From NCBI GenBank assembly GCA_030141605.1, contig JAQGDQ010000629.1, positions 1 to 64,000 on the forward strand: a stretch of 64,000 nucleotides of DNA, given 5' to 3'. Position 1 is the stretch's first letter. Each line of letters begins with the position of its first letter. This DNA is from Tubiluchus corallicola. Its lineage: Eukaryota; Animalia; Priapulida. A program made the position numbers and the translations under genes. Under the pieces are notes generated by a model. It was not told the DNA's origin and made no database searches. It was given only the letters and a program-made list of their open reading frames with translations. Shown piece by piece: positions 3,012-9,667 of this stretch.

Positions 3012-6000
3012 CTAATAGTAAATGATTACTATCGTTCCATCCGGCTTGATTACAACTTTCCTCTTTGGTGACTTTCTCTTGTAGCGACCTGAAATTAAAA
3101 TTAATAGCAATTAATAATGGGTTTAATTGTTGGCTACTACTTTGTTTAATACACGGCAACACTGATAACACAAAGCATTGGGTAGTAGTTGGTTTAATAC
3201 TTGGCAACACTGACAACACAAAGCAATGGATAGCGCTTAGTTTAATACATGGCAACACTGATATTGTAAAGCAATGGGCAGTACTTGGTTTTATACGTGG
3301 CAACACTGATAACACAAAGCACTGGGTAGCGCTTGGTTTTATATGTGGCAACACTGATAACACAAAGCAATGAGCAGTACTTGGTTTTATATGTGGCAAC
3401 ACTGATAACACAAAGCAATGGGTAGCGCTTGGCCTAATACGCGGCAACACTGATAACACAAAGCATTGGGTAGTAGTTGGTTTAATACTTGGCAACACTG
3501 ATAACACAAAGCAATGGATAGCGCTTAGTTTAATACATGGCAACACTGATATTGTAAAGCAATGGGCAGTACTTGGTTTTATACGTGGCAACACTGATAA
3601 CACAAAGCAATGGGTAGCGCTTGGCCTAATACGCGGCAACACTGATAACACAAAGCACTGGGTAGCGCTTGGTTTTATATGTGGCAACACTGATAACACA
3701 AAGCACTGGGCAGTACTTGGTTTTATATGTCGCAACACTGATAACGCAAAGCAATGGGCAGCGCTTGGCTTAATACGTGGCAACACTGATAACACAGTGC
3801 TAAGTAAACATAAGCGTGTTTGGAGTCTCACTTTATGCATATTATGTATATCATTAAAACGCATTACGTAATATTATAGATTGTACCTTTAAAATCAAAG
3901 TTTGACTATCAACTATTTAACTATTACACTTACCGCCAGATTGCTCTGGGTCTCTAGGCACCAGCCACATGATCTTGAATCCCTTGCAAAAGTTAGTTAT
4001 TGCCTTTCCCGCTAGATAGCGCAGAACAGAGTGATTCTCCATAGGCGTCTGCACAAACTCCTTGATGCTTGTGACAGCAACTTCTGTTCCATTGTTCTCG
4101 GCTGCTTCTTCTTCATTTTCTACGAACGTCTTGTCTGTCTTCATTACTGAGCACTCCCCATCTGAACGTACGGCTGCATAACCCTGATAACGTTAATTTA
4201 AATGTTAATTTAAACGTTAATTTAATTGCTAATTTGATAAAATCCATTGGCAGTAATCGTGTAACAATAAGTATTTTGACAATTGGTGACCTACTATATG
4301 AACAAAAGAAAAAACCAGAATCGTACAGCTTTCAAAGAATCGGCCAACTAAAATTAAATCATTTTGACACACATACGATTTTCGTTGATACAACTACACT
4401 TCGGGCGTCTTTTGCCAACTTAACAATTTCGTATACCTGCGATTTTGCCTGGCTTGTATAAAGCACGTGCATATTATTAATTAGGCAAGGTAAAACTGCA
4501 GTTGCTTCTTAATGTTCTGACTGCTATTGGACAGAAAAGTCTTAAAAACTGAGATAGACAGATGGATGGATGGATGGATCGATGGATGGATGGATGGATG
4601 GATGGATGGATGGATGGATGGATGGATGGATGGATGGATGGATGGATGGATGGATGGATGGATGGATGGATGGATGGATGCACGGGCTAACGGACGGATG
4701 GATGGACGGACAGATAGAGAGACAAAATAAAATAAAACCTGTGCTTATCTATTAACGAGCACGTGTGACTTGGTCACGCAGAACACACGAAAGATTTATG
4801 ACCATTCAAGTGTAGTCAATCAACCAAAATCGACAGTGTGCCAGTGCACATTTTTACTAGAAATCGCAAGCTTTCTGCTTCAACTTCAGGCAATCAATGT
4901 GTTAGAGAGAATTTAAATATTTTATTTCCCTAAGTAAGTACCAAGTCTTACCGAGTCATAATCATACAGCGTCATGACTGTCTCATCTTCAAAAAAGTTG
5001 ATAACGAGTTCTAGATGACTATCCTCGTCAAAGTCAACAACAACATCAACTTTCCTCCCCATCACGTGACTCTTCATCTCATAGTGCTCGACAGCTGAAA
5101 AAAAATTATTAGAAAAAAATGTCGTTTATCCATTTTATCAGAGCATACTGGAAGTTAAGAGTGTGGGCATCGAACGTTCGAATCGCTTTTTAGTTCGAAT
5201 TTGATTCGAGGCCAAAAATTATAGATTCGAATAACTCAGCACTTCAACTACATACGTTCATCCAATCAGCACAGTTGAGCATAATTTTTTTAACAAATTG
5301 CATTAATGTTTTACTGCAAAACAAAATCAAGTCATACGCATGATTTTGCGAGACCTGTTTTTGTTAATGGTTCGAAGACTTATTCCAAAATCTTGACACT
5401 GAATTCGAGTTAGATTCGAATTAAGTTTCTGGTAGAAGATGTTCCCTCTTACAGGAATTAAATTGCAGGCGGGCCTGATCATTGTTAAAGAGGTTGATTT
5501 AATTACGTAAAAACAGAATTTAGATACCAATTTGGATTTAATTTGAGATGCTGGGACTTAATATTGATTTAACGTGATGTGATGTGGCTGGGTTGTCTGG
5601 ATTGGATCGGACCGCATTGGATTGAAATGGACTGCATTGGATTGAAGTGGACTGGATTGGACTGCATTGGATTAGACAGCATTAAATTGAACTGGACTGG
5701 ATTGTACTACATTGGATTGAAGTGGACTGGATTGGACTGCACTGGATTAGACTGCATTGGATTGAACTGGACTGGCTTGGACTTGCATTGGATTGAACTG
5801 GACTGAAAGGATTTTTTGTTTGTTTTCATTCTAAATCTCCTGCAATACTGTTCCGAAGTCGCCATTACGTGACGTCATATACGCACCACGTAAATCGGGG
5901 GAAGAAAAAGAAATGTTAAAATCTGCACCAAAAAACTTTCCATGCGAATCTATATTCCTTAGCATTTCGCTTACCTGATAGAAAGAATTGTGTAACTAGA

Positions 6001-8174: not shown

Positions 8175-9667
8175 CAGCATTAATACAGGAGTAACTACGA
8201 TATCCCCAAACGGCAGCCCCGTGTATATACAGAAGTGCAGAAAAACTCAGACGAACAGCAAATAAAAAGCACAAAGGAAAAACACAGAAGAACAGCAAAT
8301 AAAAAGCACAAAGGAAAAACACAGAAGAACAGCAAATAAAAAGCACAAAGGAACAACACAGAAGAACAGCAAATAAAAAGCACAAGGGAACAACACAGAA
8401 GAACAGCAAATAAAAAACACAAAGGAACAACACAGAAGAACAGCAAATAAAAAGCACAAAGGAAAAACACAGAAGAACAGCAAATAAAAAGCACAAGGGG
8501 AAACACAGAAGAACAGAAAATAAAAAGCACAAGGAGAAAATACAGAAGAACAGCAAATAAAAAGCACAAGGGGAAACACAGAAGAACAGAAAATAAAAAG
8601 CACAAAGGAAAAACACAGAAGAACAGCAAATAAAAAGCACAAAGGAAAAACACAGAAAACTGCAAATAAAAAGCACAAAAAAAAACACAGAAGAACAGCA
8701 AATAAAAAGCACAAGGGGAAACACAGAAGAACAGAAAATAAAAAGCACAAAGGAACAACACAGAAGAACAGAAAATAAAAAGCACAAGGGAACAACACAG
8801 AAGAACAGCAAATAAAAAGCACAAGGGGAAACACAGAAGAACAGAAAATAAAAAGCACAAAGGAAAAACACAGAAGAACAGCAAATAAAAAGCACAAAGG
8901 AAAAACACAGAAAACTGCAAATAAAAAGCACAAAAAAACACAGAAGAACAGCAAATAAAAAGCACAGGGGAAAAACACAGAAGAACAGCAAATAAAAAGC
9001 ACAGGGGAAAAACACAGAAGAACAGCAAATAAAAAGCACAAAGGAAAAACACAGAAGAACAGCAAATAAAAAGCACAAGGGAACAACACAGAAGAACAGC
9101 AAATAAAAAGCACAAAGGAACAACACAGAAGAACAGCAAATAAAAAGCGCAGAAAAACACAGAAGAACAGCAAATAAAAATCACAGGGGGAAAAACACAG
9201 AAGAACAGCAAATAAAAAAGCACGAAAAACAGAGAAGAACAGCAAATAAAAAGCACAAAGGAAGAACACATAAGGAATGCTATGATTTATTGTTCTTATG
9301 CAGTTCACCATTTTCTAACCGCCATTTTCTACTAATGTCTAATGTTATCTTGTAGTAAAACTTGTCAGCTTGTGTAGTTATAGTCAATTCTTACTGCAAA
9401 TGTTCTTGTAAATAGTGTATAAAGTCTGTTGTCGTGAGGATCCTAAATCATGTTGTGCAAACTGTCTGATCCAATCCTATAATAAATTATGTTTAAACTA
9501 AACTTACATTAAAGCAAACACAACATACAAACTGACTTATCATTTCCTTTAATTTTTTTATATTTCACCTTGGAAATTGCTAAAACGTAATAAAACTTAC
9601 CATTTATCGAAGGAACAGGAACAGCAACTAAGACAAACGCAAAAAGAAAACACGAAACTGCAGTCAT
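3012..9667 (-). CDS. Secreted BRICHOS-domain precursor with C-terminal cationic peptide (178 aa); exons 9667-9601, 5094-4952, 4183-3934, 3088-3012
   Basis: All introns are GT(AAG)..CAG with matching phases 1/0/1 and 537 nt open. Signal peptide [30 protein letters not shown]-like [22 protein letters not shown]...[18 protein letters not shown] with the conserved Asp and two Cys. Then [24 protein letters not shown]. Confidence 0.85.
3140..3797. repeat. 48-bp minisatellite in last intron of the BRICHOS gene
   Basis: ggcaacactgataacacaaagca... recurs every 48 nt; a 3-unit block is repeated at 288-nt spacing. Confidence 0.95.
4561..4710. repeat. (GATG)n microsatellite
   Basis: Direct reading. Confidence 0.97.
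5595..5805. repeat. Degenerate pentamer repeat (GGATT/GGACT/GCATT)
   Basis: 5-nt periodicity. Confidence 0.85.
6057..6298 (+). repeat. Dispersed repeat, second copy at ~10344-10555
   Basis: Shared blocks caccctcc.., ttcaaactttac.caatgttatctaaactt and agtttaaatttaca...tatacagcgt.actgccg. Confidence 0.7.
6586..7752 (+). CDS. Intronless Golgi carbohydrate sulfotransferase (CHST1-7 / Gal/GlcNAc-6-O-sulfotransferase-like)
   Basis: ATG at 6586. N-terminal TM anchor [14 protein letters not shown]. 5'-[14 protein letters not shown], then [10 protein letters not shown], 3'-[14 protein letters not shown], and KYESLATDP. Confidence 0.93.
   Translation: MAEIKFCTKQYVPILVFVLLSVIVVNMVPSRSRLERTNIPKPVGARRLLYSQKSANGTDTTKRKTLVVLLGYRRSGSTFLGEIFNSHPRVFYVYEPILSLEPNLFPLLGYRRSDLMIWKGRRLITQLQKCAYDQLPTHMATLKRHRPYKSRAVARRLGCDTMWEEQRKRSCPTVKITQELMRNVCTDYEYHVMKVLRLHAIDLTPLLNLPGFNVKIIYLIRDPRGLINSRINTQWMKHHDGDKNPRELCFDLLENLEGARSEEIPSDSIKFIKYESLATDPEGTTKEMFNFVGLSYHGDTRQFLLTHATSNTTAVNEREGIGNTYRANSSDVAQKWKRELFPQQVKYIEKECGVFMEAAGYDFLYVKDRKEFSRLRGYIGGDIHYGQM
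8251..9270. repeat. ~37-bp A-rich minisatellite
   Basis: aaggaaaaacacagaagaacagcaaataaaaagcaca repeated about 27 times. Confidence 0.96.

What the first reader, a model, noticed from the sequence alone, without database searches (positions are those of the whole stretch)
3012..9667. Hidden BRICHOS precursor predicted to release a cysteine-free cationic beta-hairpin peptide
Seen: four exons join in phase into signal peptide + acidic BRICHOS-like domain (conserved Asp and two Cys) + furin motif RYKR + [20 protein letters not shown]. The peptide is 20 aa, net about +4, with two V/I/T-rich strands around a PDG turn. The ORF track shows only part of one exon. Known: polychaete antimicrobial peptides (arenicin, alvinellacin, capitellacin, nicomicin) use this precursor layout but are disulfide-stabilised, and BRICHOS chaperones beta-prone clients. 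Inference: this is a disulfide-free BRICHOS-client peptide, possibly a new antimicrobial/toxin or functional-amyloid family. A second KR could release a 15-mer, [15 protein letters not shown].
Basis: partly seen in the sequence, partly recalled or inferred. Interest (0 to 1): 0.88.

Follow-up and report, generated by a model that had tools for sequence, protein, structure and literature searches.

The report
Cysteine-free peptide on BRICHOS carrier
A real four-exon animal gene encodes a likely secreted chaperone-type (BRICHOS-like) carrier predicted to release a short, cysteine-free, positively charged hairpin peptide, likely for host defence; the sequence has almost no known relatives, but this kind of precursor is already described in marine worms.

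Summary
Four GT-AG exons on the minus strand join into an open 178-aa frame. A contig of run X2 lies exactly on exon 3 and continues into exons 2 and 4. A whole spliced homologue, P0001 (180 aa, 139 of 178 residues identical), has the same layout and tail.

BRICHOS membership is likely, not proven. Pfam PF04089 is P0001's only hit (E 0.0019, 18.8 bits, cut-off 25). The three best ESM Atlas rows are BRICHOS clusters (0.91-0.93). The Asp and two Cys sit where expected. Both structure models were unusable.

The novelty claim is overstated. Cysteine-free BRICHOS peptides, including predicted hairpins (HfBRI-20/-23), were published in 2023 (PMC10745061).

What differs: all net charge lies in a 6-residue head (+4), followed by an uncharged V/I-rich hairpin; the precursor is compact; and only one relative was found. 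Cleavage and function are untested, and the host phylum is undetermined. A membrane-active defence peptide is the best reading (about 0.5). A self-assembling, surfactant-like peptide is the main rival.

The parts
9601..9667 (-). Exon 1: ATG and hydrophobic signal-peptide-like segment (residues 1-22)
   Evidence: GT donor; best of 484 candidate first exons against P0001, 10 of 23 residues identical; SignalP not run
4952..5094 (-). Exon 2: N-terminal strands of the BRICHOS-like domain (residues 23-70)
   Evidence: tblastn with P0001 E 1.7e-16, 38 of 47 identical; X2 loose end matches its 3' end 26 of 30
4961..4963 (-). Codon of Asp67, the likely conserved BRICHOS aspartate
   Evidence: Starts a D-Y-x-x-G-x-x-A...C motif kept in window and P0001 (motif pattern recalled); near the start of the Pfam match 61-145
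3934..4183 (-). Exon 3: rest of the BRICHOS-like domain with Cys81 (4153-4151) and Cys136 (3988-3986), and linker (residues 71-153)
   Evidence: X2 contig covers exactly this exon; 69 of 83 identical to P0001
3012..3088 (-). Exon 4 coding part: convertase motif, tail peptide, stop codon
   Evidence: tblastn with P0001 E 3.3e-11; X2 loose end matches its first 30 nt at 26 positions
3075..3086 (-). RYKR, the only R-X-K/R-R motif: predicted furin-type cleavage site
   Evidence: identical in P0001 and in the X2 loose end; cleavage untested
3015..3074 (-). Predicted mature 20-mer: cationic head KSPKRK (+4), then a net-neutral V/I-rich predicted hairpin around PDG (3044-3036); second KR at 3065-3060
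   Evidence: 17 of 20 identical to P0001 with three V/I swaps; two strands in both low-confidence models
6586..7752 (+). Nested single-ORF sulfotransferase gene inside intron 1, opposite strand (not shown to be functionally linked)
   Evidence: ORF; Pfam Sulfotransfer_1 E 1.7e-17

Best explanation
This spliced four-exon gene encodes a likely secreted pre-pro-protein whose BRICHOS-like domain is predicted to shield a sticky C-terminal hairpin until a furin-type protease likely cuts after RYKR, releasing a cysteine-free 20-residue peptide that would act on microbial membranes. Shown: gene structure, splicing in relatives, conservation of the motif and tail. Inferred: signal-peptide removal, BRICHOS fold and Cys81-Cys136 bond, client binding, cleavage, a hairpin held by a PDG turn and V/I packing instead of a disulfide, and antimicrobial action (the cationic head binds anionic surfaces, the hydrophobic hairpin inserts or oligomerises).
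For: Splicing and coding constraint. Pfam BRICHOS is P0001's only hit and spans profile positions 4-91 of 91, E 0.0019. ESM Atlas top three rows are 180-183-aa BRICHOS clusters, 0.93/0.92/0.91, with 202-206 of 256 features shared; all ten best hits with a family share that family or clan. The order of elements in the second model (six strands, helix, strand, helix, strand, two tail strands; Cys81 on the sixth strand, Cys136 at the end of the second helix) matches the core described in PMC9714404. Layout signal + acidic pro-region + dibasic site + cationic tail is that of nicomicin, arenicin, alvinellacin and capitellacin (PMC6265681 passages). The peptide lies in the last exon, as in alvinellacin (PMC5431198 passages). 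Disulfides are not required: HfBRI-28 is Cys-free and active, and linear arenicin variants kept activity (PMC6627698 abstract). In X2 the nine codons of RYKRKSPKR differ only at three silent positions (read).
Against: The Pfam score (18.8 bits) is under the cut-off of 25 and comes from the homologue; the window's exons scanned singly gave no BRICHOS hit. Atlas recognition 2283 is just under its 2300 mark, and shuffled proteins reach 0.9 in 4-10 of 100 cases. Charge is modest (+4) and confined to six residues; both faces of the hairpin are hydrophobic rather than facially amphipathic. A second KR could remove the head and leave net +1. Nearest Atlas clusters are named gastrokine-like or are mollusc hypothetical proteins, not antimicrobial precursors. 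[quoted passage not shown] The host is not shown to be an annelid. One X1 contig carries a 2-nt deletion in exon 3.
Confidence: 0.5

Rival explanations
1. Same precursor and processing, but the released peptide is a surface-active or self-assembling structural element (mucus, adhesive, tube or egg-case; functional amyloid or surfactant-like film). BRICHOS would keep it soluble until secretion, and a second cut at KR could remove the charged head and trigger assembly.
For: Residues 7-20 are net 0 with 9 of 14 hydrophobic. The 15-mer has V/I/T fraction 0.53 and GRAVY 0.93. The three tail substitutions are all V/I swaps. A cationic head with a Val/Ile-rich body recalls surfactant protein C (PMC4106191, start of abstract in listing). 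BRICHOS clients tend to aggregate into amyloid-like fibrils (PMC9714404).
Against: No expression, tissue or proteomic data. I found no invertebrate BRICHOS client described as structural in 9 paper searches; the characterised invertebrate ones I read about are antimicrobial. Composition alone does not show assembly.
Confidence: 0.25
2. A gastrokine-like secreted epithelial protein in which the BRICHOS domain, with the tail still bound or simply discarded, is the working product (extracellular chaperone or mucosal factor); the tail has no activity of its own.
For: Length (178-180 aa) and Atlas neighbours match gastrokine-like clusters of 183 aa. Linker and domain are about as conserved as the tail (81-83% against 85%).
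Against: A full R-X-K-R motif plus a second KR are kept in all three versions seen. Atlas names are automatic and similarity there is not orthology.
Confidence: 0.2
3. The pro-domain is not BRICHOS but an unrelated beta-rich secreted domain with a chance resemblance.
For: Pfam score below cut-off; no sequence match in the PDB at E up to 10.
Against: Full-length profile coverage, the Asp and two Cys in place, concordant Atlas neighbours and element order.
Confidence: 0.05

Closest known systems
HfBRI-20 and HfBRI-23 of Heteromastus filiformis (PMC10745061)
   Same: BRICHOS precursor, dibasic site, short cysteine-free cationic C-terminal peptide predicted to form a beta-hairpin; activity untested in the parts read.
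   Different: Those precursors are of the transmembrane type, and their hairpins are described as highly amphiphilic, salt-bridged and like (VR)n peptides. Here there is a short signal-peptide-like start and a charged head on an uncharged hairpin. Their sequences are in a figure I could not see, so direct homology of the peptides was not tested.
Arenicin, alvinellacin, capitellacin, abarenicin, nicomicin precursors (annelid BRICHOS antimicrobial peptides)
   Same: Signal + acidic pro-region with BRICHOS + dibasic site + cationic mature peptide; peptide in the last exon (alvinellacin).
   Different: Their mature peptides carry one or two disulfides; the nicomicin precursor is 239 aa against 178; alvinellacin has 5 introns against 3; no sequence relative among them surfaced in my searches.
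Gastrokine-like and mollusc ~180-aa BRICHOS clusters (ESM Atlas)
   Same: Same size, feature scores 0.91-0.93.
   Different: No alignment is given by that tool; function of the mollusc cluster unknown (Pfam BRICHOS on 42% of members); their tails were not compared.
Surfactant protein C (proSP-C)
   Same: BRICHOS client with a cationic N-terminal part and a Val/Ile-rich body.
   Different: [quoted passage not shown]

Membership tests
BRICHOS superfamily | Match to Pfam PF04089 | tested here: inconclusive
   P0001: only hit, E 0.0019, profile 4-91 of 91, 18.8 bits under the cut-off of 25; single exons gave none; the window's own spliced product was not scanned
BRICHOS superfamily | Conserved Asp at the end of strand 2 and two Cys (strand 4, helix 2) | tested here: met
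   Asp67, Cys81, Cys136 kept in window and P0001; positions on predicted elements fit, at low confidence; definition from PMC9714404
BRICHOS superfamily | N-terminal hydrophobic signal or anchor | tested here: met
   Hydrophobic residues 5-19 in both sequences; helix 4-26 in the P0001 model; SignalP not available
BRICHOS superfamily | Proprotein-convertase site before the mature peptide | tested here: met
   RYKR at 155-158, the only R-X-K/R-R; motif only, cleavage untested
BRICHOS superfamily | BRICHOS fold by structure comparison | tested here: inconclusive
   Models at mean pLDDT 42 and 35; Bri2 BRICHOS 8rnu at rank 22, Z 5.2, rmsd 2.9, 58 aligned, among unrelated rows; not listed
BRICHOS superfamily | C-terminal beta-prone client forming two antiparallel strands | tested here: inconclusive
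   Two strands around PDG in both models, at pLDDT under 40; V/I/T fraction 0.40
Annelid BRICHOS antimicrobial peptide precursors | Acidic pro-region and cationic mature peptide | tested here: met
   Net -14 and +4
Annelid BRICHOS antimicrobial peptide precursors | Antimicrobial activity of the mature peptide | not testable with these tools
   Needs synthesis and assay
Annelid BRICHOS antimicrobial peptide precursors | Annelid host | tested here: inconclusive
   A neighbouring 5'-nucleotidase has its best named hit in Lingula anatina at only 35% identity, among 7999 scored candidates; no genome held
Arenicin/alvinellacin-type disulfide beta-hairpin peptides | One or two disulfides in the mature peptide | tested here: not met
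   No Cys in the tail of the window or P0001

The most novel reading that the evidence does not exclude
The tail is the first invertebrate BRICHOS client that works as a protease-triggered, self-assembling surfactant or functional-amyloid peptide rather than an antibiotic: a first cut releases a soluble +4 amphiphile, a second removes the charged head and leaves a net +1 hydrophobic hairpin that polymerises, possibly in a non-annelid lineage.
Probability: 0.15. Interest if true: 0.8.

Novelty: new member of a known kind. Interest (0 to 1): 0.4.

Why it matters
It adds a compact, highly divergent BRICHOS-type precursor that Pfam's cut-off misses, so domain-based mining would overlook it. The 20-mer needs no oxidative folding and is cheap to test as an antimicrobial lead or as a minimal natural BRICHOS client for chaperone and amyloid studies. 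If it proves structural rather than antimicrobial, or comes from outside annelids, it would widen the known roles of BRICHOS clients. The precursor logic and cysteine-free clients are already in print, which caps the surprise.

Tried and rejected
No genome is held for this window, so paralogues outside the window could not be sought. The look-up of sequencing runs listed 2 runs and no holder on record as RNA; that is no evidence on expression. Pfam on four single exons gave no BRICHOS hit; a weak Tcp10_C match on exon 4 (E 0.12) is not used. Protein searches found only P0001: 1 of 25 candidates and 1 of 28. Among 1.84 billion representatives searched with exon 3 alone there were 6 hits: P0001 and five long multi-stretch proteins matching the acidic middle of the query, which I dropped as likely composition matches without aligning them. 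The whole-protein query was not run there. Metagenome contigs: 276 pattern matches, none confirmed. PDB sequence search: 0 hits at E up to 10, twice. AlphaFold2 without a deep alignment gave mean pLDDT 42 and 35; three fold searches gave nothing clear. Complex prediction of P0001 residues 24-150 with 151-180: no verdict (median 0.75, one control 0.58). Second Atlas call (unnamed clusters): best 0.84, leads only. Taxon placement through a neighbouring gene and cluster members failed. Three look-ups in earlier findings returned nothing. Two searches for a paper on PDG-type hairpin turns returned 0, so that point is recalled only. The search for BRICHOS in minor phyla was swamped by papers without the term (0 occurrences in the 25 listed of 1,393). 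The supplement of PMC10745061 gave no text hit for HfBRI-20/-23; its figures may bear on the comparison. Rejected: the 290-aa minisatellite ORF in intron 3 and the other two frames of exon 4, since the homologue uses the RYKR frame.
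Full report
Observation. The window is AT-rich (GC 0.30-0.44 per 2 kb), repeat-rich animal DNA with intron-bearing genes. They join in phases 1/0/1 into 537 nt, 178 aa, without a stop. Cys lie at 6, 81 and 136, RYKR at 155-158; the 20-residue tail is net +4 and the pro-region net -14. 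Introns are 4506, 768 and 845 nt.

Independent support for splicing. A 1101-nt contig of run X2 (same species label as the DNA holder X1; RNA by guess) aligns over 3934-4184 only, with 31 differences and no gap. Its loose ends match the first 30 nt of exon 4 and the last 30 nt of exon 2 at 26 of 30 positions each, against 12 and 7 of 30 for the introns. Its 216-nt overhang upstream fits exons 2 and 1 (210 nt). At about 88% identity X2 is a paralogue or a divergent population, not this allele. Of 23 listed differences, 14 are third-position; 11 codons are silent and 10 replace, which suggests constraint on this frame. A second version, P0001 (180 aa, unnamed Logan contig), is a whole spliced homologue. 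Identities to the window product are 10 of 23 (exon 1), 38 of 47, 69 of 83, 5 of 5 (GRYKR) and 17 of 20 (tail; three V/I swaps). Exon 1 is the best of 484 candidate first exons (40 against 28), although its tblastn E-value alone is 2.1. P0001 has a 2-residue insertion that X2 lacks, so three versions are seen. Against this, one X1 contig has a 2-nt deletion at 4122 in exon 3: a null allele, a pseudogene copy or an assembly error.

Is the domain BRICHOS? P0001 served as proxy; the window's own spliced product was not scanned. Its only Pfam hit at E up to 10 is PF04089, residues 61-145 on profile 4-91 of 91, E 0.0019, 18.8 bits against a cut-off of 25. The four exons scanned singly gave no such hit. 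In the ESM Atlas the top three rows are 180-183-aa BRICHOS clusters (two gastrokine-like, one mollusc hypothetical; 0.93, 0.92, 0.91), though the recognition value 2283 is just below the tool's 2300 mark. Asp67 opens a D-Y-x-x-G-x-x-A...C motif (pattern recalled) kept in both sequences. Both AlphaFold2 models are of low confidence (mean pLDDT 42 and 35). The second gives six strands, helix, strand, helix, strand and two tail strands, with Cys81 on the sixth strand and Cys136 at the end of the second helix. That is the order and disulfide placement described for the family core in PMC9714404 (parts 1-2 of 3 read). Fold searches were uninformative and PDB sequence searches empty. I put BRICHOS identity at about 0.9 or more, by convergence rather than by one decisive test.

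The tail. All net charge is in the first six residues (KSPKRK, +4); residues 7-20 are net 0 with 9 of 14 hydrophobic, and both faces of the predicted hairpin are hydrophobic. The 20-mer has GRAVY -0.03; the 15-mer after the second KR is net +1 with GRAVY 0.93. In X2 the codons of RYKRKSPKR differ only at three silent positions (read). That x-P-D-G-x turns nucleate hairpins without disulfides is recalled; two searches found no paper for it. Which site is cut is untested.

What is known. PMC10745061 (parts 1-2 of 8, passages, supplement text search) lists 13 BRICHOS-related peptides of 18-91 residues in one polychaete. It states that two families without any cysteine were found: HfBRI-20/-23, predicted salt-bridged hairpins on transmembrane-type precursors, and HfBRI-28, a helix that killed bacteria. 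Their sequences are in a figure that I could not see. PMC6265681 (passages) gives the signal + acidic BRICHOS pro-region + dibasic site layout and a 239-aa precursor. [quoted passage not shown] PMC6627698 (abstract) reports linear arenicin versions with comparable activity. PMC12960093 (passages) reports two coral BRICHOS proteins with predicted antimicrobial peptides, and PMC4203926 (passage) a mussel BRICHOS transcript, so such proteins are not confined to annelids. PMC10182729, PMC9627735, PMC13001179 and PMC10748772 (passages) confirm the family definition and the client-hairpin model. Nine paper searches showed no description of this particular peptide; the library lacks most subscription papers, and I did not search with the peptide itself.

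How it most likely works. Shown: a spliced, conserved coding gene with a hydrophobic start, an acidic two-Cys domain, a convertase motif and a Cys-free tail. Inferred: the protein enters the secretory pathway; the BRICHOS-like domain binds the V/I-rich hairpin and keeps it from aggregating; a furin-type protease cuts after RYKR; the freed amphiphile binds anionic microbial surfaces by its head and inserts or oligomerises by its hairpin (0.5). Rivals: a self-assembling or surfactant-like secreted peptide (0.25), a gastrokine-like protein whose domain is the product (0.2), not BRICHOS (0.05).

Limits. Relatives are scarce: only P0001 in three searches, none in metagenome contigs, no paralogue in the window, no genome to search. 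These searches are word-limited or used exon 3 only, so this is no proof of rarity. The host phylum is undetermined; the best named hit of a neighbouring gene is a brachiopod protein at 35% identity.

Verdict. A real, well-supported hidden gene and a good catch from raw sequence, but a new member of a published kind. Interest 0.4.

Noticed in passing
window 6586-7752 (+): A 388-codon single-ORF sulfotransferase gene (Pfam Sulfotransfer_1, E 1.7e-17) nested on the opposite strand inside intron 1 of the BRICHOS-like gene.
   Followed up: partly
window 4122 (run X1 contig): The only X1 contig laid on exon 3 lacks 2 nt there, which would shift the frame: null allele, pseudogene copy or assembly error.
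   Followed up: no
window 56-855 and 1367-2167: Large inverted repeat downstream of the gene: 647-nt arms 99% complementary, extended by 167-nt arms at 90%, containing 53/105-nt tandem units related to the 20-nt array at 2480-2821; looks like a foldback element.
   Followed up: no
window 3139-3796; 4561-4680; 8240-9274: Intronic tandem arrays: 48-nt x 13.7 in intron 3 (gives a spurious 290-aa open frame that runs through exon 4 in another frame), a 4-nt x 30 microsatellite in intron 2, and 37-nt x 28 in intron 1.
   Followed up: no
window 53839-55953 (-): Single-ORF 5'-nucleotidase (Pfam Metallophos and 5_nucleotid_C), divergent (33-38% identical to its five best hits), with an insertion splitting the C-terminal domain match into two stretches.
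   Followed up: partly
window 27800-28861 (-) and 39063-40112 (-): Two single-ORF rhodopsin-family GPCR genes (Pfam 7tm_1, E 2e-25 and 3e-32).
   Followed up: no
window 17071-22770 (-) and 23651-24271 (+): Cytochrome P450 exons (one confirmed by Pfam, E 2e-20), apparently two divergently oriented genes with similar first exons.
   Followed up: no
window 30994-31485 (+): Exon of an integrin alpha gene (Pfam Integrin_A_Ig_1, E 4e-9).
   Followed up: no
window 57580-58923 (-): Open frames for a Gly/Tyr-rich low-complexity protein (57580-58044) and a nearby short protein with a signal-peptide-like start (58570-58923); possibly secreted structural proteins.
   Followed up: no
window 61137-61498 (+): Fragments that look like the 3' end of an RTE-type LINE (recalled resemblance).
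   Followed up: no
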